Source: a virus (taxonomy: Duplodnaviria > Caudoviricetes). Taken from it: DNA of 53,739 bases. A program made the translations under genes and the position numbers. Within the stretch, counting starts at the first letter, position 1; every line of letters begins with the position of its first letter. The notes beneath the pieces were generated by a model. That model saw only the letters and a list, made by a program, of their open reading frames with translations. It did not search any database and was not told the DNA's origin. The stretch spans positions 1-53,739 of the IMG/VR virus record IMGVR_UViG_3300048896_000074, one strand, 5' to 3'. Below, piece by piece: positions 4,164 to 20,999 of the stretch.

Positions 4164-4669
4164 TTTCCTGCCTCCAACACGAAGCAGGCGATGTGACGCC
4201 CGGTGCCTTTGCCCTGGGATCCGTCCTCAGTCGCCAGCCAGTGCACGTCGCCCAGGTTGCGGACCTTGGCGCCCGCGGCGAGCAGCATCAGCACCCATTT
4301 GTCGATGGGATAGACGAAGACGACGGACTTGCCCTTGGCGTGCTCGGCGATGGCCTTGCGCGCCCAGGCGGTCGGTCCCTTCTTCCTGCCCTGATGGATG
4401 ATGGAGCCGAAAGGCGGGTTGACGTAACTGGACGTTCCCCACTCGCAAGTGAGGCCGTCGAAGCCTTCCGGAATTGGATGCGGGCAGGGGTCGAAGTTGA
4501 ACTTGAACTCGACGTTGAGCGGCCCGTAAACGTCCGGCGGCGTCAGCCAGTAGTGCTTCGCATCGTCACCGTTCCCAGCGTGGAACTTGTTCTCAGCTAT
4601 CGGCGCGAGAAATGCGCGGGCGGCTCCGTCGGACCAGCCATCGGCGGGGAACAGGTCTGGTCCGCTCAC
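4160..4669 (-). CDS. phage DNA N6-adenine methyltransferase (Dam-phage family)
   Basis: WLTPP..Y..L..EF.F.FDPCP, DGL...W, YVNPPF catalytic motif. Confidence 0.75.
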   Translation of the reverse strand: MSGPDLFPADGWSDGAARAFLAPIAENKFHAGNGDDAKHYWLTPPDVYGPLNVEFKFNFDPCPHPIPEGFDGLTCEWGTSSYVNPPFGSIIHQGRKKGPTAWARKAIAEHAKGKSVVFVYPIDKWVLMLLAAGAKVRNLGDVHWLATEDGSQGKGTGRHIACFVLEAGK

Positions 4670-4823
4670 GGCAGACCCCGCGACTTGGAACTTTCACGCG
4701 CGATTGGTATTATCGGCACAAGGCGGCTCCTGCATTGAGCTTGCTAAGGGCGGTGCGGTGTCTTTGCCGGACACGCATCGCCCGCCCCCTTTTTCCGCCC
4801 AGGTTGTGGAAACGTCAAGCGGG

Positions 4824-5411
4824 TCACGCGGCGGCCTCATCGAACTTGTCCGCCTCGTTGCCCCATACGGTCCAGCCTGGGCGTGACTGACGGCCGAAGA
4901 GTTCCAGCCGCGGCCCGGCGCAGTAGGCTTCGATTCGGTCGTAAGATTCCTCGGGCTTGCGCGAGTGCTCCCTACGGTGGGCGATAATGACCTGCCGCGT
5001 TGACTTGTTTAGCCGCTTCGGAGATCCGCGCCGGCCAAGCAGGACGAGCTCGGCGTTCTGGCGGGTCGTGTGCCCCATGCCGACGAACATGCTCTGGACG
5101 TCGGAGAACAGGACCGGCGCGTGCTTGTTCAGCTTCAGCCAGACGAAGGCGACGGTCGAATAGTCGAACCCCCATGCGCGCATGAGATCGAGTGCCTGCG
5201 GTAGATGCGGCGTCGTCGTCCAAAGGAACAGGTGGGCGCCCTTCGCGCAGACGTCGGCGACCGGGAGCTCCTTGATCCCGGCCAGATGCATCGTCGGGTA
5301 GTGCTGGACGGCGCCGCGGCCCTCTCCTTTCGCGCTCCGGACTTTGTATGTCCAGGGCGGATCCGCGAGCACACAGCCAAAGCCGCCTGGAGTGGTAGGA
5401 AGGAGGATCAT
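4824..5411 (-). CDS. MT-A70 family adenine methyltransferase
   Basis: LADPPW, HYPTM, LFLWTT, AWGF.Y, GMGH.TR.NAE, REHSRKP, RLELFGR..RPGW..WGNE. Confidence 0.93.
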   Translation of the reverse strand: MILLPTTPGGFGCVLADPPWTYKVRSAKGEGRGAVQHYPTMHLAGIKELPVADVCAKGAHLFLWTTTPHLPQALDLMRAWGFDYSTVAFVWLKLNKHAPVLFSDVQSMFVGMGHTTRQNAELVLLGRRGSPKRLNKSTRQVIIAHRREHSRKPEESYDRIEAYCAGPRLELFGRQSRPGWTVWGNEADKFDEAAA

Positions 5412-5890
5412 CCGACCAGCGCCCCCGCAAATGGGAAACCGTCGATCGCCGCATAGCGACTGCGCTTGAAATTGCCCGGAAACGAATAACCGATCGGGTA
5501 GAGCGAGACGGTCTGGCTGACGGTTTCCACGGGGAGATAGGCCACGGTGCGGCTATCCAGCGCCACCAAGGCCAGCACGTCGCAGTGCTCCGCCGATAGG
5601 CGCGATCCTTTGCCGTCACGCCCGCGCCGACGCACATGGAAGACATAGACCATGTTCGGACAACGGCCTTTGGCGTTCGCGTTCTTTGGCTTGAGGGTTG
5701 ACTTCACCTGAACGCGCACGAAGCGGTCGCCGAGGTCCACCATCACGTCATAGGGAAGCCCCTGGTCGGTCAGGAATGCCCGATAGCCGGCCAGCATAAG
5801 GTCAGCGCAGACGAGGTGTTCGGCGGCCTTCCCGATCTCCAAGGAATCGGTGGCGAGGATGCAGGAGAACGGCCCGGGCGGCAGGGTCAC
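5408..5890 (-). CDS. PD-(D/E)XK homing-type endonuclease (group I intron-associated family-like) fused to an MT-A70-like N-terminal peptide
   Basis: IGKAAEHLVCADL...GY, PYDVMVD, RVQVKS, CDVLALVALD; GTG start at 5890 overlaps the upstream TGA. Confidence 0.8.
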   Translation of the reverse strand: MTLPPGPFSCILATDSLEIGKAAEHLVCADLMLAGYRAFLTDQGLPYDVMVDLGDRFVRVQVKSTLKPKNANAKGRCPNMVYVFHVRRRGRDGKGSRLSAEHCDVLALVALDSRTVAYLPVETVSQTVSLYPIGYSFPGNFKRSRYAAIDGFPFAGALVG

Positions 5891-16297: not shown

Positions 16298-16855
16298 ATG
16301 AGCGAGAAGATGCGCTTTGCCTTCGCCGATCCGCCTTATCTGGGCTGCGGGATCAAGCACTATTCCGACCACCCCGATGCGGCGGACTGCGACACGCCCG
16401 AGTGGCACGCAGCCCTGATCGCTCGCTTGGTCACGGACTATCCTGATGGCTGGGCACTCTGCCTCAGTTCGCCGAGCCTGCGGACCATCCTGCCTATGTG
16501 CCCGCCTAACGTGCGCGTCGGGAGCTGGCGCAAGCCTTTCGCCTCCTTCAAGCCGAACGTGAACCCGGCCTATGCGTGGGAGCCGGTGATCTGGCTAGGC
16601 GGTCGCAAGCGCCCCCGCACGATGCCCACGGCCCGCGATTGGGAAGTGACAGCCGATGATCTGGCCGAGAGCATCACGCTCCGCAGAGGGTTGACCGGGG
16701 CCAAACCGCGCGCCTTCTGCATGTGGATCATGGACCTTCTGAACGTCCAGCTGGGCGATACGGTCGATGACCTGTTCCCCGGCTCCGGGGCTGTGGGGGC
16801 GGCGATTGCCGAGCGTCTTCGTGCCGAGACGCCGCCGCTGGAGTTGATCGGTTGA
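16298..16855 (+). CDS. small amino-(N6A/N4C) DNA methyltransferase-like protein
   Basis: FADPPY at the N-terminus, WEPVI, GAKP..F, DDLFPGSG near the C-terminus (beta-type motif order). Confidence 0.75.
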   Translation: MSEKMRFAFADPPYLGCGIKHYSDHPDAADCDTPEWHAALIARLVTDYPDGWALCLSSPSLRTILPMCPPNVRVGSWRKPFASFKPNVNPAYAWEPVIWLGGRKRPRTMPTARDWEVTADDLAESITLRRGLTGAKPRAFCMWIMDLLNVQLGDTVDDLFPGSGAVGAAIAERLRAETPPLELIG

Positions 16856-16928
16856 GCGCCCAAGCCCGCATCCTCTCCATCCTCCGCGACGGTGAGCAGA
16901 CCTACGCACAGATACGGGGAGTTCCGTA

Positions 16929-17129
16929 GTGAGCGTCTGGGTATTGATAATCTGGGTCAGCGGCTTGCAGCCCCTGGGCGGGCACAATCCCGAGGTCTGG
17001 CTGTTCCAAAACCGGACAGACTGTATCGCGGTTGCCGAAGGACCACACGCTCCAGGCGTCTCTCCTGGCCAATGTTACGAGGTCCCCATCATCGCGCATG
17101 AGGATTGGGGAAAGACGGTGAAGCCATGA
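16929..17129 (+). CDS. hypothetical protein
   Basis: GGGGAG upstream of the GTG; hydrophobic N-terminus and two Cys. Confidence 0.45.
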   Translation: MSVWVLIIWVSGLQPLGGHNPEVWLFQNRTDCIAVAEGPHAPGVSPGQCYEVPIIAHEDWGKTVKP

Positions 17130-17169
17130 TCCGCGCCGCTGACGTGAACCCTCTAGGGAGAGAAGGGTG

Positions 17170-17433
17170 ATGCGGATCAACGTCTACAGCCAAGAACTGA
17201 CCAGCGAAGTCGGCGTGGTCGAGAAGGTCGCCAACACCGGCCTCGTCTACAGCGCCGTGCAGTTGATGCTGCACTCCTCGCCCATGCTACACCACCCGCC
17301 CGCCGACGACGACCGCAGCGCCGTGACGTTCTGGCTGCCCAAGTCCGCCGAGCGCCGAGAAGCACTTGCGGGTGCGTTCGAGGAGATGGCCGCCAAGGTT
17401 CGCTCGGCGCGTCCCGAAACCGGCTTGGACTGA
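17170..17433 (+). CDS. hypothetical phage protein
   Basis: MRINVYSQELT...DDDRSAVTFWLP; strong codon bias; purine-rich RBS. Confidence 0.7.
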   Translation: MRINVYSQELTSEVGVVEKVANTGLVYSAVQLMLHSSPMLHHPPADDDRSAVTFWLPKSAERREALAGAFEEMAAKVRSARPETGLD

Positions 17434-17479
17434 TGACCCCCCACCTTCCAATCACTCTTCACATCGGAGGATACTGGCG

Positions 17480-18031
17480 ATGAGCACGCAGGGCCATGAC
17501 GAGGTGAGCTTCCGCCAAGGGATACGCGCGGCAATAACTTGGTTGCACGCAGAAGCAAAAACGATGAACGACCCTCTCGCGCAAATGATCTTGAACAACG
17601 CTGCGTTCCATCTTGGCACCGAAAAGAACCTCCCTCCCCCCAGTGCAGAAGGAAGGATGAGGGCGGCTTTGGAAGCCATCGTAGCGGAAGACTGGCGATG
17701 GGCTCAGGGCGACGGACACCCGTTCAAGAAATATGGCTCTTCCGGCGAAATCGCCCGCGCCGCCCTAGCCTCCGAGCCTACGGAGGTGGACATGGCCGCG
17801 TTCGGCGCTTCCGATGCGGCTTGTTATCTCTACCCCAACAAGGGGGATGAACTGCTCCGTGCGGCTTTCATTGCGGGGGCAGCGCATGCAGTCAGACCCT
17901 CCCATCCCGATCCGGAACTGGAGGGGGCTGTGGAGAAGATGACGCGGTGGATCGAAGACGAGGAGTTCGTGCCCCCCTACGGGGCAATCGCAATCCGCAC
18001 CATCCTCAAAGCCCTGAAGGCCCAAGCGTGA
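17480..18031 (+). CDS. hypothetical mosaic protein
   Basis: GGAGGA RBS; repeated ALE.I/ARAALA segments typical of variable phage ORFs. Confidence 0.55.
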   Translation: MSTQGHDEVSFRQGIRAAITWLHAEAKTMNDPLAQMILNNAAFHLGTEKNLPPPSAEGRMRAALEAIVAEDWRWAQGDGHPFKKYGSSGEIARAALASEPTEVDMAAFGASDAACYLYPNKGDELLRAAFIAGAAHAVRPSHPDPELEGAVEKMTRWIEDEEFVPPYGAIAIRTILKALKAQA

Positions 18032-18249
18032 GCGAGCCTGAGACGTGGCAGGATCACTGCCGTCGCTGCGGTGGTTGGAACGAGCGTGTCTTGTGCCGCC
18101 AAACCGGCCGCTACAACGTAGCGTTCCCGTCAGCTTGTCTAACCAAGGGCGAGTGTGAGAAGCGCATCCTGCGATGCGATCCCGGCAGACGCACCCGAGC
18201 CGCGCTTGCTGTGCTGAGGGCGGATACCGAATCGCCCGCCAAGCGATGA
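18028..18249 (+). CDS. hypothetical Cys-rich protein
   Basis: GTGA coupling; HCRRCGG. Confidence 0.4.
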   Translation: MSEPETWQDHCRRCGGWNERVLCRQTGRYNVAFPSACLTKGECEKRILRCDPGRRTRAALAVLRADTESPAKR

Positions 18250-18394
18250 AGCCTGACGGGCGATAAGTCCGGGGCATTTAGGCAGGTTCCTACTGAAGGA
18301 ACGCTAGTCCCTACGGCGTCGGCTGTCCAGCGCACGCAATAAAGCGCCGCCGATCCGGGGGGACCGACGGCGCAAAGTTGGTGGTCTGAGGTCG

Positions 18395-18739
18395 CTAGAA
18401 GATGCCGAGGAATGGCTTGCGCGTCAATTCCTTCACGAGCGCCGCGTCCCGGGCCTCGCATGCCGACACGATATGAAGCGTCTCGGCCTCGCGGCTGTTG
18501 GCCGTGTCGAGGTTCCCGGTCTGCTCGTCGGAGAAGCTGATCCAGTCGCCCACCGTCGCGCCGCCGCCAGGGAGCGGAGCGCCGGCCACGCCCTGCGCCC
18601 AGGCGCCTGGGACTAGCGTCGAGCAGCTATCGGCCGGTCTGCTGGTCACAATAGGCGTAGCGCAACCCGATAGCACAATCGCGATGGCCGCGATGGCTGT
18701 CCTGAGATAAAATCTGGCCCTTGTCTCGGAGTTGGTCAT
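18395..18739 (-). CDS. outer-membrane spanin (Rz1-like lipoprotein)
   Basis: Lipoprotein signal ...AIAAIAIVLSGC; CS.LVP..W..GV.GAPLP; last gene of the lysis cassette. Confidence 0.75.
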   Translation of the reverse strand: MTNSETRARFYLRTAIAAIAIVLSGCATPIVTSRPADSCSTLVPGAWAQGVAGAPLPGGGATVGDWISFSDEQTGNLDTANSREAETLHIVSACEARDAALVKELTRKPFLGIF

Positions 18740-19196
18740 GGCTGCACCAAAGTCACCGGAAGAACAGGTCACAAGGTTTGAGCCCGACCCAAACAGCGGG
18801 TGCTGGCTTTGGCTGGGAGCGACGAATCCGAGCGGATACGGGCACTTCACATCGCGCGGAACTCTGCGGCTGGCGCACCGCGCGGCCTTTGAGGTTCACA
18901 TAGGGCCGATACCTAGCGGGGTCTGCGTCTGCCACCGATGCGACACGCGGGCGTGCATCAACCCGGACCACCTCTTTCTTGGGAGCGCGGCAGATAACAG
19001 TCACGACGCGCTCAAAAAGGGCCGCCTCAAGACCCATCGCGGCGTGGAGCATCCGCGCGCCGCTCTGACGGATGACGACGTGCGACAAATCAGACTGGAC
19101 TCTCGCACCTTGACCGAGATCGGCAATGACTACGGCGTTCACCATACGACCGTCATGCGGGTTAAAACCCGAAAGCGCTGGGCGCACGTCGCCTAA
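18738..19196 (+). CDS. free-standing HNH homing endonuclease
   Basis: PNSGCWLWLG, GYG.F, AHR.AFE...GPIP.G..VCH.CD..ACINPDHL..G...DN..D...KGR with C-terminal HTH; antisense to the late operon. Confidence 0.92.
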   Translation: MAAPKSPEEQVTRFEPDPNSGCWLWLGATNPSGYGHFTSRGTLRLAHRAAFEVHIGPIPSGVCVCHRCDTRACINPDHLFLGSAADNSHDALKKGRLKTHRGVEHPRAALTDDDVRQIRLDSRTLTEIGNDYGVHHTTVMRVKTRKRWAHVA

Positions 19197-19567
19197 CTCC
19201 CCGGCGCGCGTAGTTGCCGACACGCAGGGTCGTTCTGGTATGCCCGTCTCAGGCACAAAGCCCGCAGGCCAGCATTGTCAGCGTCAGGAGTGACCGGAAC
19301 CTCGGCGCCCTTGGCATGGGTGATCTTCTCTCGGTTGGATCTGGTGAGCTCCGCAGTCGCCGCCTCGCTCGTCGCCTCGCGCTGGACGGCCTCGACCGCG
19401 ACGTGGCCCGACGCCGTAGCCGCGGTGATCGACTTCCCCGCCGCGTCGCTCTGGGCGGCCGTGGAGACCGCTCGCTGGTGAGCCGTCCATGTAGACCATC
19501 CAAGGTACCCGAGGCCGCAAACGGCTATCAGGGCCAGCGCGCCGAGTATCCCAGCGAGGAACCTCAA
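19193..19567 (-). CDS. inner-membrane spanin (Rz-like)
   Basis: N-terminal TM, Ala-rich coiled coil, C-terminal LC.RRAY.NDPAC. Confidence 0.75.
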   Translation of the reverse strand: MRFLAGILGALALIAVCGLGYLGWSTWTAHQRAVSTAAQSDAAGKSITAATASGHVAVEAVQREATSEAATAELTRSNREKITHAKGAEVPVTPDADNAGLRALCLRRAYQNDPACRQLRAPGS

Positions 19568-19574
19568 ACGCCCG

Positions 19575-19649
19575 TCACCGCGAGTAGGAGATTATCAGCG
19601 CGAACATCGCAATCGCGATGAGCGCCGAGAAGGCGAGGTAGGGTTTCAC
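19575..19649 (-). CDS. 24-aa hydrophobic peptide in the lysis cassette
   Basis: MKPYLAFSALIAIAMFALIISYSR; GTG overlaps the upstream TGA. Confidence 0.5.
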   Translation of the reverse strand: MKPYLAFSALIAIAMFALIISYSR

Positions 19650-20065
19650 CCGGCGCCCGCCGCGGCGACATTCACGGCGCCGTTCGTCGCGATCTGGATC
19701 CCGATCTTGTCGAGTCCAGCCTTGAGGCCGTTGATGACGGTCACGAGAGCGGCCTGCTCGGCGGGACGCAGAACGCCGGCGGTAGGTACCCCGAGCGCTT
19801 GGAGGATGTTGAGGATCTGAGTCGCCTGTGTATCGGCAGACTGGGCCAGAACCGGACCGATGGCCGTCAGGCCGGCGCCGACGAGCGAGGAGGCGCCAAC
19901 CTTGAACGAGTGGTAGAGCAGGCGGACGGCGGGCTGGAGCACCGCGTCCAGAGAGGCGATATCCTTCTCAATGAGCGCGCCCTCACCAGCCATGAAATCG
20001 TTAAAGGACGACTTGCCCTCCAGTAGGCTTTCGAGGTTGTGGAACGTGACGGTGATGTCGTTCAT
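19646..20065 (-). CDS. hypothetical protein (lysis cassette)
   Basis: ATGA-coupled to the endolysin. Confidence 0.65.
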   Translation of the reverse strand: MNDITVTFHNLESLLEGKSSFNDFMAGEGALIEKDIASLDAVLQPAVRLLYHSFKVGASSLVGAGLTAIGPVLAQSADTQATQILNILQALGVPTAGVLRPAEQAALVTVINGLKAGLDKIGIQIATNGAVNVAAAGAG

Positions 20066-20577
20066 GTTGCCATTCCTAGAGCTTGTTGATGGATTGCGTT
20101 GAGCCTGTTCATCCAGCCTTTGCCGAAGTCGTCGAAGGTGGACAGGCTGCGATAATACGCCTCGTGCGCTTCGGCATACTTGTTGATCGTCAGCGTGGGA
20201 TCCTGCGCGTTCGTGGCGGCCAAGGTTTGCGGACCGACCGCGCCGTCCTGCGGCACGCCCACCGACTGCTGCAGCAGTTTCGCGCCGCGGCCTGGTCCCG
20301 AGTTCACCGAGGCGTTGAACGTCATAAGGTCGACGCCGCTCGGCAGGTCGTCCGCCTTGACGGGCGCCCAGTAGCCGTCGCGGTAGATGTCCTCCAGTTC
20401 CCCGTCGGTGATCGCGCGGAGCTCGTCCTTCGTCGCCGGCCGCCCGAGGTAGTGCGAATACGTGTCGAGCGTCACGCCCTTCATGGTCGCGCCGCCGGGG
20501 TCTTTGGGATTGTCTGACCAGCCGCCCTCGTAGAGCAGGATCGTGTCCAGGCAGATCGGGAAGTTCGCGGCGGTCAT
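20062..20577 (-). CDS. endolysin, glycoside hydrolase family 108 with peptidoglycan-binding domain
   Basis: EGGWSDNPKDPGGATMKGVT, VNSGPGR, DG.VGP.T, FGKGW.NR. Confidence 0.95.
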   Translation of the reverse strand: MTAANFPICLDTILLYEGGWSDNPKDPGGATMKGVTLDTYSHYLGRPATKDELRAITDGELEDIYRDGYWAPVKADDLPSGVDLMTFNASVNSGPGRGAKLLQQSVGVPQDGAVGPQTLAATNAQDPTLTINKYAEAHEAYYRSLSTFDDFGKGWMNRLNAIHQQALGMAT

Positions 20578-20999
20578 GGGACGGGTTTCTCCATAAACGG
20601 CGTCGGCGTCTCCTGAACCGGGACGGGATCGCCGTCGGCTTGCTGGATCGTCACGACCTGGGGCTCGGCGGCATCCGGCGCCGGAGCGCCACCAGCGATC
20701 TTCGCCAAGGCCGCGGCGCTGACCTTCCCGCTCTCTGCGATGGCGTCGCCGGAGGCGCGGGAGCCGACGGTGGACCCGACCCAGAACGAGACGGCGGCAA
20801 CAAGCAGCGTCGTCTCAGTGCCGAAGATGCCGGAGAGCAGGCCGAACATGACGGTGGAGACGGTGACGCCCGACGCGACGAGCGAGAAGACGCCGACGAT
20901 CATCCCCGCCCAAACGCCGAGCAGCCAAAACGTCACGAGCGCCGGGACGCTATTCCACTTCGCCGACTGGCCGGCGTCCGTCTTGGTCTCGTCGGTCAT
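20574..20999 (-). CDS. putative holin
   Basis: Two TM segments ending in FWVGS..GS; directly upstream of the endolysin. Confidence 0.65.
   Translation of the reverse strand: MTDETKTDAGQSAKWNSVPALVTFWLLGVWAGMIVGVFSLVASGVTVSTVMFGLLSGIFGTETTLLVAAVSFWVGSTVGSRASGDAIAESGKVSAAALAKIAGGAPAPDAAEPQVVTIQQADGDPVPVQETPTPFMEKPVP

What the first reader, a model, noticed from the sequence alone, without database searches (positions are those of the whole stretch)
18395..19330. HNH insertion separated the overlapping spanin genes by duplicating and recoding the shared segment
Seen: an antisense HNH lies between i-spanin and o-spanin. The +1 frame of the i-spanin tail still reads as a dead lipoprotein start (MPRAPRFRSLLTLTMLACGLCA*DGHTRTTLRVGNY). 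It aligns without gaps to the live o-spanin (LSGCATPIVTSRPADSC), with codon pairs such as TGA/TGC, CAT/CCT, GTC/GCC, AAC/AGC and TAC/TGC that are mostly silent in the i-spanin frame. The o-spanin has a new N-terminus whose ATG (18739, minus) shares the palindrome CATG with the HNH ATG (18738, plus). Known: Rz/Rz1 genes commonly overlap. Inference: the element carries one single-purpose recoded copy of the overlap on each side, keeping both genes intact and removing its own cut site.
Basis: partly seen in the sequence, partly recalled or inferred. Interest (0 to 1): 0.78.

Follow-up and report, generated by a model that had tools for sequence, protein, structure and literature searches.

The report
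Split spanin genes flanking HNH endonuclease
In this soil phage, two lysis genes that normally share one stretch of DNA in two reading frames now lie apart, each with its own diverged copy of that stretch, and a mobile-type HNH nuclease gene fills the gap exactly; a nuclease-split spanin pair is already known in T5-like phages, so this is a new variant, not a new kind.

Summary
The anatomy is real. On the minus strand lie the i-spanin (19193-19567) and the o-spanin (18395-18739). An antisense HNH_3 endonuclease gene (18738-19196) fills the gap to the nucleotide.

In 28 of 37 related loci the o-spanin starts inside the i-spanin tail in the +1 frame, sharing 92-158 nt, and none of the 37 carries an HNH. 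The window's i-spanin tail still reads in +1 as a dead lipoprotein start, with TGA where the lipobox Cys should be. This relic matches the signal peptide of the closest o-spanin relative, P0001, at 11 of 27 residues. That is more than synonymous recoding of the i-spanin gives (P=0.008).

So the ancestor was overlapped, and the shared segment now exists as two single-purpose copies.

A separate clade (L005/L006, L007, L008/L009) is separated without any HNH, and L007 carries an unrelated ORF at the same junction. As plain DNA the two window copies do not align significantly.

Kongari et al. 2018 already describe T5 (overlapped) versus Shivani (spanins split by a homing endonuclease gene). There only 15 nt are duplicated and the i-spanin tail is replaced. 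Verdict: a new variant of a known kind, of moderate interest.

The parts
19193..19567 (-). i-spanin gene (124 aa, TTG start, N-terminal membrane anchor, two conserved Cys in the tail)
   Evidence: ORF and translation. Weak PHROG Rz-like spanin hit, E=0.004. Full-length homologs P0005/P0006/P0007 at 84/77/53% identity over the alignment, all ending in PGS at the same stop position. It lies two genes downstream of a GH108 endolysin.
19193..19330 (-). i-copy of the formerly shared segment (i-spanin residues 80-124). Its +1 frame holds the dead o-spanin start: relic ATG at 19317-19315, and TGA at 19251-19249 where the lipobox Cys should be.
   Evidence: +1 frame reading. It matches the P0001 signal peptide at 11/27 residues, P=0.008 against synonymous recoding of the i-spanin. 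The part after the TGA is less like the o-spanin than recoding gives (P(null>=actual)=0.99 against P0001, 0.95 against P0004).
18738..19196 (+). Free-standing HNH_3 endonuclease gene (152 aa), antisense to the lysis cassette. It overlaps the o-spanin start by 2 nt and the i-spanin end by 4 nt.
   Evidence: Pfam HNH_3, 44 bits, above cut-off. PHROG endonuclease/HNH families. It is the only HNH_3 match in the record. Relatives in 1548 phage records are all below 60% identity (listed rows 39.5-45.4%), across very different hosts. Best viral-contig relative is 51%. No relative was found next to spanins in 0 of 37 spanin loci or 0 of 80 HNH loci.
18395..18739 (-). o-spanin gene (114 aa, lipoprotein signal with lipobox LSGC, Cys26 codon at 18664-18662)
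   Evidence: ORF and translation. Homologs P0001 72%, P0003 58%, P0004 57%. Weak PHROG Rz-like spanin hit, E=0.022. 33 related loci show it overlapped with, or just downstream of, an i-spanin.
18605..18661 (-). o-copy of the formerly shared segment, conserved part (mature o-spanin residues 27-45)
   Evidence: 14/19 identical to P0001. Residues ~20-44 can still be co-encoded with the P0005 i-spanin tail at 22 of 25 codons (my count from the flag string). Its i-frame reading is no closer to an i-spanin tail than recoding of the o-spanin gives (P~0.5).
18662..18739 (-). New or strongly diverged o-spanin signal peptide (residues 1-26). This is the lowest-GC piece of the region.
   Evidence: 5/26 identical to P0001. 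19/66 nt identical to the relic, which is chance level. Only 4 of its first 19 codons can be co-encoded with the i-spanin tail. GC is 0.55 against 0.659 for the window.
18344..18373 (-). Terminator-like hairpin just after the o-spanin stop, the likely end of the minus-strand lysis transcript
   Evidence: 13-pair stem (10 G-C) followed by TTTATT. This is a consensus scan only.
20062..20577 (-). Endolysin (context: it marks the lysis cassette)
   Evidence: Pfam Glyco_hydro_108 at 87 bits and PG_binding_3 at 30 bits. PHROG endolysin, 6e-46.

Best explanation
This is a phage lysis cassette on the minus strand: putative membrane protein, GH108 endolysin, a 139-aa ORF, i-spanin, o-spanin, terminator. 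Its two-component spanin belongs to a family that normally has the overlapped architecture. In that architecture the o-spanin starts about 45 codons before the i-spanin stop, in the +1 frame.

In this phage the dual-coding stretch has been duplicated and the genes pulled apart. The upstream copy (19193-19330) is kept only for the i-spanin tail, and its o-spanin frame is dead (lipobox Cys codon now TGA, original start lost). The downstream copy (18605-18739) is kept only for the o-spanin. Its mature N-terminus is conserved, while its signal peptide is new or diverged beyond recognition.

A free-standing, homing-type HNH_3 endonuclease gene lies antisense in the junction and fills it exactly.

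My committed reading of the order is this. Duplication of the shared segment came first and created the only place where an insertion does not break an essential lysis gene. The HNH gene then settled there, as an unrelated ORF did in L007.

What is shown: the anatomy, the overlapped state of most relatives, the relic, and the loss of one frame in each copy. What is inferred: the duplication (it is logically required if both proteins kept their homologous ends), the order of events, the mobility and cleavage activity of the HNH, and co-transcription of the spanins through the antisense HNH.

Confidence in the core (overlapped ancestor, two single-purpose copies, mobile-type HNH at the junction) is about 0.8. 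With the stated order included it is about 0.5.
For: Family state:
- Of 37 loci found with the o-spanin alignment, 28 are overlapped in the +1 frame by 92-158 nt, 5 are separated and 4 cannot be assigned. Overlapped loci occur in both Brevundimonas and Sphingomonadales prophages.

Own clade:
- WINDOW+P0001+P0004 has 100/99 support.
- The first 45 residues of P0001 and P0004 can be co-encoded with the tails of the window, P0005, P0006 and P0007 i-spanins at 29-36 of 45 codons. Other offsets give about 30%.

Relic:
- The +1 frame of the window i-spanin tail matches the P0001 signal peptide at 11/27, with TGA at the lipobox Cys.
- P=0.008 against synonymous recodings of the same i-spanin tail (3000; 1500, with the register left free). 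Overlapped loci used as positive controls give P<0.05 in 7 of 8 tests.

Loss of one frame per copy:
- The i-spanin tail is 41/45 identical to P0005, while its +1 frame is 14/45 identical to P0001.
- o-spanin residues 27-45 are 14/19 identical to P0001, while their i-frame reading is 7/21 identical to the P0005 tail.
- All four differences between the window and P0005 tails (at 108, 111, 121 and 122) are ones the live o-spanin codons could not have shared (flag strings).

Codon usage:
- A/T-ending codons make up 15/45 of o-spanin residues 1-45 against 7/69 in the rest (Fisher P=0.003).

Order of events:
- A distinct clade is separated with no HNH (L005/L006, L008/L009, ATGA junction).
- L007 has a 79-aa ORF of no known family at exactly that junction.

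HNH as a mobile type:
- Pfam hit above cut-off and single copy in the record.
- A very large, scattered phage family with no close relative.
- Absent from all 37 spanin loci.
Against: - That P0001 and P0004 are overlapped is therefore inferred from codon compatibility, not seen.
- The relic test is significant against P0001 only. Against P0004 it gives P=0.16-0.17.
- One of the separated controls (L007) also gives a low P against P0001 (0.005). The test is therefore not fully specific, or that clade carries a faint relic too.
- The i-frame reading of the o-copy carries no information beyond what the o-spanin protein imposes (P~0.5). Only one of the two copies gives independent relic evidence.
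- The two copies do not align significantly as DNA.
- The backbone of the o-spanin tree is unresolved. A single origin of separation shared with the L005-L008 clade is not strictly excluded.
- Against my order of events: the HNH fills the gap with no spacer left. The low-GC new signal peptide is contiguous with the HNH 5' end. In Shivani an endonuclease insertion did create the split directly.
Confidence: 0.5

Rival explanations
1. The HNH cassette itself split the overlapped pair in one event. It landed in the shared stretch, about 75-135 nt were duplicated during repair, and the left end of the insert (the antisense strand of the HNH leader) supplied the new start and signal peptide of the o-spanin. 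The flanking copies then diverged, which also protects the allele from being cut by its own nuclease and from recombinational loss of the insert.
For: - Published precedent. T5 spanins overlap, while Shivani and phiR201 have a homing-endonuclease gene between them (PMC6139136, section 11).
- My own alignment shows T5 546-560 present on both sides of a ~703-nt insert in Shivani. The first o-spanin residues and the last i-spanin residues there are encoded by the ends of the insert.
- In the window the HNH fills the gap to the nucleotide.
- The new signal-peptide segment has the lowest GC (0.55) and is contiguous with the low-GC 5' end of the HNH.
- The relic is well kept far from the HNH (11 of 19 co-encodable positions) and almost erased next to it (3 of 14). 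This is a trend only (Fisher P=0.07).
- The part next to the HNH is less like the o-spanin than random synonymous codons would be (P(null>=actual)=0.99 against P0001, 0.95 against P0004).
Against: - Homing and double-strand-break repair are not known (my own knowledge) to make duplications of 75-135 nt. In Shivani only 15 nt are duplicated.
- Separation with both ends retained happened in another clade with no endonuclease present.
- No HNH relative closer than 51% exists in the collections searched, so the extent of the cassette cannot be defined.
- No HNH-less allele of this phage was seen in four laid runs, so presence/absence polymorphism within the species is not shown.
- Cleavage specificity is untested.
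Confidence: 0.3
2. Replacement from outside. The native overlapped o-spanin died in place, leaving the relic, because a separate o-spanin gene was brought in by recombination from another phage that was already separated, with or without the HNH. On this reading the downstream copy is not a duplicate made in this lineage.
For: - The live o-spanin codons fit the tail of P0005 (QLLNPGS) better than the window's own tail (QLRAPGS): 26/44 against 22/44 codons can be co-encoded.
- The live signal peptide is unrelated to the relic.
- The lipobox LSGC and neighbouring residues resemble those of separated-type L008.
Against: - From the lipobox onward, the nearest relative of the live o-spanin is P0001 (14/19 and 54/69 identical; clade support 100/99).
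- P0001 is also the protein whose signal peptide the relic resembles. Relic and live gene therefore point to the same clade.
- Separated-type o-spanins (P0003, L005, L007, L008) form another clade.
- The P0005-like fit is equally explained by four amino-acid changes in the window's i-spanin tail after the overlap constraint was lifted.
Confidence: 0.1
3. There was no ancestral overlap in this lineage. The +1-frame 'lipoprotein start' is what a GC-rich off-frame of a conserved i-spanin tail happens to read, and the spanins were always separate.
For: - An open +1 frame with a Met is common given the i-spanin protein alone (25% of recodings).
- The DNA alignment of the two copies is not significant.
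- The test against P0004 is not significant.
Against: - The relic matches the P0001 signal peptide beyond the recoding null (P=0.008). That is the level seen in true overlapped loci.
- The stop falls exactly on the lipobox Cys of the LCAC motif shared by P0001 and P0004.
- The P0001 and P0004 N-termini can be co-encoded with this clade's tails at 29-36 of 45 codons.
- 28 of 37 family loci are overlapped.
Confidence: 0.05

Closest known systems
T5 versus Shivani/phiR201 spanins (Kongari et al. 2018, BMC Bioinformatics 19:326, PMC6139136; section 11 read). I checked the DNA myself with KP143763 and AY587007.
   Same: One spanin family is overlapped in most members. In a few members it is separated by a free-standing endonuclease gene that sits tightly between the i-spanin and the o-spanin. 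The N-terminus of the o-spanin signal sequence differs from that of the overlapped relatives. Of 447 records matching the Shivani segment, only 19 have one place covering at least 80% of it; the T5 match skips about 700 nt there.
   Different: Shivani:
- The insert has T5orf172/MUG113 and zinc-finger domains (called GIY-YIG in the paper).
- It is on the same strand as the spanins.
- It landed inside the 70-nt overlap.
- Only 15 nt (T5 546-560) are present on both sides.
- The last 13 i-spanin residues were replaced by 8 new ones (my count from the translations).
- Only about 4 o-spanin residues changed.

Window:
- The insert is an HNH_3 gene on the opposite strand.
- The i-spanin keeps its whole conserved tail and its stop position.
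- The o-spanin keeps its mature N-terminus.
- At least ~75 nt must therefore exist twice, and a dead o-spanin start survives in the i-spanin tail.
Other mixed-architecture spanin families in the same paper (DFL12phi1/EE36P1 and Jersey/FSL_SP-031; section 11)
   Same: These are homologous spanins found in both overlapped and separated layouts. o-spanin homology is kept through the periplasmic domain, and the signal sequences are unlike each other.
   Different: [quoted passage not shown] Here the i-spanin tail is the best conserved part (41/45 against 63/79 identical to P0005). The authors favour separated-to-overlapped evolution overall. The relic here points the other way for this lineage.
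Gene splitting by free-standing homing endonuclease genes in T4-like phages (for example a mobE-type insertion giving a split ribonucleotide reductase gene).
   Same: A selfish endonuclease gene persists inside an essential locus because the flanking coding capacity stays functional.
   Different: Those cases cut one reading frame into two genes. Here two frames that shared the same DNA were given separate DNA.
HNH-free separated members of the same family found here (L005/L006, L008/L009, L007)
   Same: Same spanin family. Both the conserved i-spanin tail and the conserved mature o-spanin N-terminus are retained, so the shared segment must also have been duplicated. The signal peptides are unlike those of overlapped members.
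   Different: No endonuclease is present. The junction is ATGA, or holds an unrelated 79-aa ORF in L007. There is no relic in the L008 i-spanin tail (P=0.30-0.98). They form a different clade in the o-spanin tree (97/91).

Membership tests
Two-component spanin, i-spanin component | N-terminal transmembrane anchor followed by a periplasmic domain, about 100-200 aa | tested here: met
   Residues 3-24 (FLAGILGALALIAVCGLGYLGW) are hydrophobic and the rest is polar; 124 aa in all. This was read from the sequence. No topology predictor was run.
Two-component spanin, i-spanin component | Sequence membership in a described Rz-like family | tested here: inconclusive
   PHROG phrog_214 (Rz-like spanin) only at E=0.004. 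No Pfam family.
Two-component spanin, o-spanin component | Small outer-membrane lipoprotein with a signal peptide ending in a lipobox Cys | tested here: met
   MTNSETRARFYLRTAIAAIAIVLSGC: positive n-region, hydrophobic core, L-S-G-C. The lipobox rule is recalled, not computed with a predictor. PHROG phrog_456 (Rz-like spanin) only at E=0.022.
Two-component spanin (pair) | The genes are adjacent, overlapped or embedded, with the o-spanin in the +1 frame of the i-spanin, and lie in a lysis cassette | tested here: met
   28 of 37 homologous loci have the o-spanin in the +1 frame of the i-spanin tail. The window pair lies downstream of a GH108 endolysin.
Two-component spanin (pair) | Outer-membrane disruption at lysis, and i-o complex formation | not testable with these tools
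HNH_3 endonuclease (Pfam PF13392) | Profile match above the curated cut-off | tested here: met
   44 bits against 24.8, residues 44-88 covering profile positions 1-45 of 46. 46 bits in the six-frame search.
Free-standing homing endonuclease gene (functional class) | Sporadic presence at a site that is uninterrupted in related genomes | tested here: met
   0 of 37 homologous spanin loci carry an HNH relative. 0 of 80 loci of HNH relatives carry spanins. An HNH-less allele of this same phage was not found.
Free-standing homing endonuclease gene (functional class) | Site-specific cleavage of the endonuclease-free allele, and copying into it | not testable with these tools
   This needs purified protein or co-infection crosses.
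Endonuclease-split spanin pair of the T5/Shivani type | The endonuclease gene lies between an i-spanin and an o-spanin that overlap in relatives | tested here: met
   for the window; for Shivani and T5.
Endonuclease-split spanin pair of the T5/Shivani type | The insertion lies inside the overlap, with the i-spanin C-terminus replaced and only a few nt duplicated | tested here: not met
   The window i-spanin keeps its tail (41/45 identical to P0005) and its stop position. In Shivani 15 nt are duplicated and the i-spanin tail is replaced.

The most novel reading that the evidence does not exclude
A single HNH insertion event un-overlapped an overprinted gene pair. It duplicated the dual-coding stretch. 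The new lipoprotein signal peptide of the o-spanin came from the antisense strand of the HNH's own 5' leader. The dense synonymous changes in the i-spanin tail next to the insert were selected, to stop self-cleavage or recombinational loss of the insert. This would be a natural case of a selfish element forcing duplication and subfunctionalisation of dual-coding DNA. It would also show that spanin architecture can move from overlapped to separated.
Probability: 0.22. Interest if true: 0.65.

Novelty: new variant of a known kind. Interest (0 to 1): 0.45.

Why it matters
Overlapped (overprinted) genes are usually treated as an evolutionary trap, because neither frame can change freely and nothing can be inserted. 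This locus, together with the HNH-free separated clade found here, shows a way out. The shared stretch is duplicated and each copy then specialises.

The effects of lifting the constraint are readable. The window's lipobox is LSGC where P0001 and P0004 have LCAC. The i-spanin tail has four amino-acid changes that the overlap would have forbidden. Both copies have unusual codon usage.

The relic gives a direction (overlapped to separated) for one spanin lineage. The main survey of spanins left direction open for T5/Shivani and favoured the opposite direction overall.

The locus also offers a clean pair of substrates for asking what a homing-type HNH recognises: an overlapped allele from relatives against the two diverged copies. 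It is not a new kind of system.

Tried and rejected
- Single-protein scans of viral contigs with the o-spanin and the i-spanin found no relatives. The i-spanin alignment found none in viral or metagenome contigs. All loci therefore came from the o-spanin alignment.

The contigs of P0001 and P0003-P0007 were never seen. This is the main gap.

- The look-up of sequencing runs and read laying. Four runs (X2-X5) were laid on 17800-20300 at 80% likeness. No joint skips the HNH. One 312-nt contig of X3 is identical across 18548-18859, the o-spanin start/HNH start junction. Nothing covers 19144-19227. The contigs are short and filtered, so this says nothing about whether HNH-free alleles exist.

- Reciprocal relic. 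I expected the i-frame of the live o-spanin 5' end (...GLRYAYCDQQTGR*LLDAS) to be independent evidence of a dead i-spanin tail. Recoding the o-spanin synonymously gives the same similarity (P~0.5). The separated relative L008 reads similarly by eye. I dropped it as evidence.

- 'Anti-similarity' of the i-spanin tail next to the HNH and the relic gradient (Fisher P=0.07) are suggestive only. I do not claim selection.

- Upstream-leader comparison of HNH relatives. The best relative is 51% identical and short blastn of the flanks gives only chance hits, so the extent of the cassette could not be defined.

- Promoter scan of 18200-19700: 0 sigma-70-like sites. The HNH promoter is unknown.

- tRNA, Rfam and Pfam look-ups around 16500-19700 for a side observation found nothing.

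- The search of earlier findings by sequence returned nothing.

- Literature. 'spanin' + 'homing endonuclease' gave 67 papers, 15 listed. I read passages and section 11 of PMC6139136, passages of PMC5219037 (not relevant) and passages of PMC4342426. 'overlapping genes' + 'homing endonuclease' + 'duplication' + 'phage' gave 8 papers, 7 listed, seen as titles and abstract starts only. In these I saw no report of a spanin split in which both ends were retained by duplication. Supplementary tables of PMC6139136 (the spanin coordinates) are closed and may list further endonuclease-split pairs.

- Not run: structure prediction, complex prediction, the search of protein representatives, and the third homologous-protein search. 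None would have given genomic context.
Full report
WHAT IS THERE

The window is a 53.7-kb IMG/VR virus record. Between 18344 and 20999 the minus strand carries a lysis cassette. It holds a 141-aa ORF with hydrophobic stretches (20574-20999, no significant family), a GH108/PG_binding_3 endolysin (20062-20577), and a 139-aa ORF. Next come a 124-aa protein with an N-terminal hydrophobic anchor (19193-19567) and a 114-aa lipoprotein with lipobox LSGC (18395-18739). A strong terminator-like hairpin follows (18373-18344). The last two proteins hit 'Rz-like spanin' PHROGs only weakly (E=0.004 and 0.022). Their features and the behaviour of their relatives (below) make them an i-spanin/o-spanin pair.

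Between them, on the plus strand, lies an intact 152-aa HNH_3 endonuclease gene (18738-19196; 44 bits against a cut-off of 24.8). Its ATG shares the palindrome CATG (18737-18740) with the o-spanin ATG. Its TAA (19194-19196) overlaps the i-spanin TAG (19195-19193). No intergenic base is left on either side.

CHECK OF THE OBSERVATION

By o-frame codon position the identity is 13/20, 4/20 and 7/19. This is the pattern expected if the i-copy was free to change only at its wobble position (o-frame position 2) and the o-copy only at its own wobble position (o-frame position 3).

As a plain DNA alignment it is not significant. The local alignment gives P=0.89 against shuffles, and the repeat finder sees no repeat around the HNH. 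With the register fixed in advance, 24/59 lies in the upper 1.5% of all offsets in the window, and 13/20 in the upper 0.03%. The signal-peptide part is at chance (19/66).

RELATIVES

Protein searches gave three o-spanin relatives (P0001 72%, P0003 58%, P0004 57%) and three i-spanin relatives (P0005 84%, P0006 77%, P0007 58%).

Scans with the o-spanin alignment gave 37 loci: 2 viral, 12 metagenomic and 23 in genomes, the latter mostly Sphingomonas, Sphingomicrobium and Brevundimonas. None contains a relative of the HNH (tblastn).

The architectures are as follows.
- 28 loci (27 distinct; L015 repeats L004) have the o-spanin starting inside the i-spanin tail in the +1 frame, sharing 92-158 nt.
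- 5 loci (3 distinct) are separated. L005/L006 and L008/L009 have the i-spanin stop and the o-spanin start fused as ATGA. L007 has a 79-aa ORF of no known family exactly in that junction.
- 4 loci (L016, L018, L038, L039) cannot be assigned.

In a maximum-likelihood tree of 34 o-spanins, WINDOW+P0001+P0004 form one clade (100/99). The separated loci plus P0003 form another (97/91). The backbone is unresolved.

WAS THE WINDOW'S LINEAGE OVERLAPPED?

Three lines of evidence say yes.

(a) Codon compatibility. For each offset I asked, by dynamic programming, how many codons of an o-spanin N-terminus can be encoded in the +1 frame of DNA that also encodes a given i-spanin tail. P0001 and P0004 reach 29-36 of 45 with the tails of the window, P0005, P0006 and P0007, always at the same offset. 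Other offsets give about 30%. Their signal peptides are therefore, or very recently were, written inside an i-spanin tail of this clade.

(b) The relic. Aligned on the lipobox, the window's +1 frame matches P0001 at 11 of 27 signal-peptide residues. It ends LCA* where P0001 and P0004 have LCAC. Against synonymous recodings of the same i-spanin tail (window codon usage; 3000, 1500 with the register left free) this gives P=0.008. Against P0004 it is P=0.16-0.17. The same test on truly overlapped loci, each scored against another locus's o-spanin, gives P<0.05 in 7 of 8 cases. L008 (separated) shows nothing (P=0.30-0.98). L007 shows a faint signal (P=0.005 against P0001, 0.025 against P0003).

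(c) The dead relic is about twice as similar to P0001's signal peptide (11/27) as the live signal peptide is (5/26).

TWO SINGLE-PURPOSE COPIES

The i-spanin tail (residues 80-124) is 41/45 identical to P0005 and is the best conserved part of the protein (63/79 for residues 1-79). It ends at the same PGS-stop as all relatives. The live o-spanin is 14/19 identical to P0001 over residues 27-45 and 54/69 over the rest.

In the overlapped state these two stretches are the same DNA. Since both proteins kept them, that DNA must now exist twice. This is a logical inference, with import from another phage as the only alternative.

Each copy has lost the other frame. The i-copy's +1 frame is 14/45 identical to P0001. 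The o-copy's i-frame is 7/21 identical to the P0005 tail, which is no more than the o-spanin protein alone imposes (P~0.5).

Lifting of the constraint is visible.
- The four places where the window's tail differs from P0005 (108, 111, 121, 122) are ones that the live o-spanin codons could not have shared.
- Ser33, and Ser25-Gly26 of the lipobox (LSGC against LCAC), could not have been shared with the i-spanin tail.
- A/T-ending codons are enriched in o-spanin residues 1-45 (15/45 against 7/69, P=0.003). In i-spanin residues 80-124 the enrichment is weaker (15/45 against 14/79, P=0.08).

Only residues from about 20 onward of the live o-spanin remain compatible with the tail: 22 of 25 with P0005, by my count. 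The first ~19 are unrelated and have the lowest GC of the region (0.55 against 0.659). At least ~75 nt were therefore duplicated. The signal peptide is either new or diverged beyond recognition.

THE HNH

It is the only HNH_3 in the record. It belongs to a very large family of phage endonucleases. There are 1548 phage records with a match, all below 60% identity (the listed rows are 39.5-45.4%), from hosts as distant as Stenotrophomonas, Gordonia, Mycobacterium and Vibrio. There are 467 viral-contig relatives, the best at 51%. None of the 80 fetched loci has spanins nearby or any flank similarity. This scattered distribution fits a free-standing homing-type gene. Cleavage and mobility are untested. 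The same o-spanin/HNH junction occurs identically in a contig of another soil-type run (X3), but no HNH-less allele was seen.

DID THE HNH CAUSE THE SPLIT?

This is open.

For a single event:
- The T5/Shivani precedent (below).
- The exact fill of the gap.
- The low-GC new signal peptide adjoining the HNH 5' end.
- The relic is kept far from the HNH (11 of 19 co-encodable positions) but erased next to it (3 of 14; Fisher P=0.07). It is even less o-spanin-like there than random synonymous codons would be.

Against a single event:
- Another clade of the family reached the same separated state, with both ends retained, without any endonuclease.
- That junction has independently taken up an unrelated ORF in L007.
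- A 75-135-nt duplication is not what homing is known to produce (my own knowledge), and Shivani shows only 15 nt.

I lean towards duplication first and HNH second (about 50%). The single-event model gets about 30%, and import of the o-spanin from another phage about 10%.

COMPARISON WITH WHAT IS KNOWN

Kongari et al. 2018 (PMC6139136; section 11 read) report that seven T5-family phages have overlapped spanins (70 bp). [quoted passage not shown] They leave the direction open. [quoted passage not shown]

I checked the DNA. In Shivani the insert lies on the spanin strand and has T5orf172/MUG113 domains. T5 201-560 and 546-970 align to the two sides of it, so 15 nt are duplicated. The last 13 i-spanin residues are replaced by 8 new ones (my count from the translations), and the first 4 o-spanin residues differ.

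The window differs in four ways. The endonuclease family is different and the gene is antisense. The whole conserved i-spanin tail is kept. At least ~75 nt are duplicated. A readable dead start fixes the direction as overlapped to separated.

In the searches named under Tried and rejected I found no description of that variant.

VERDICT

It is unproven on causation by the HNH and on cut-site removal. The general phenomenon is already in print. This is a new variant of a known kind, of moderate interest (0.45).

Noticed in passing
L007:2744-2983 (+): In a separated, HNH-free relative, a 79-aa ORF (MGKFHYNDGLYFERIADG...) sits exactly between the i-spanin stop and the o-spanin start, with overlapping stop/start codons at both ends. 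It has no Pfam or PHROG family. The junction of un-overlapped spanins seems to be a recurrent landing place for extra genes.
   Followed up: partly
L121 (KP143763) 4383-5828 and L122 (AY587007) 199-887: In Shivani against T5, 15 nt of the T5 overlap (T5 locus 546-560) occur on both sides of the ~703-nt endonuclease insert. The new i-spanin C-terminus and the first o-spanin residues are encoded by the ends of the insert. The paper does not mention the short duplication in the sections I read.
   Followed up: partly
window:17305-17438: A ~130-nt stretch inside the ORF 17167-17433 (+, 88 aa) is 72-76% identical in DNA to unrelated Mycobacterium and Ralstonia phages; a shorter piece (window 17305-17360) is 87.5% identical to a Burkholderia phage. 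It is not a tRNA, matches no Rfam family, and the ORF has no Pfam family. Unexplained.
   Followed up: partly
L018:2959-3255: A Sphingomicrobium MAG carries an o-spanin relative (58% identity over residues 29-114) whose ORF has no signal peptide or lipobox, and no i-spanin upstream. This is probably a decayed prophage remnant.
   Followed up: no
window:18586-18395 (P0002): The protein database holds the window's o-spanin only as a 64-aa call that starts at an internal GTG (P0002). Automatic gene calling missed the true start, which abuts the HNH start. This kind of o-spanin annotation error is common according to PMC6139136.
   Followed up: no
window:19019-19035 (-): A weak terminator-like hairpin (5 pairs, then TTTTT) lies on the minus strand inside the HNH gene, on the path of the lysis transcript towards the o-spanin. 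If it is functional, it would lower o-spanin expression relative to the i-spanin.
   Followed up: no
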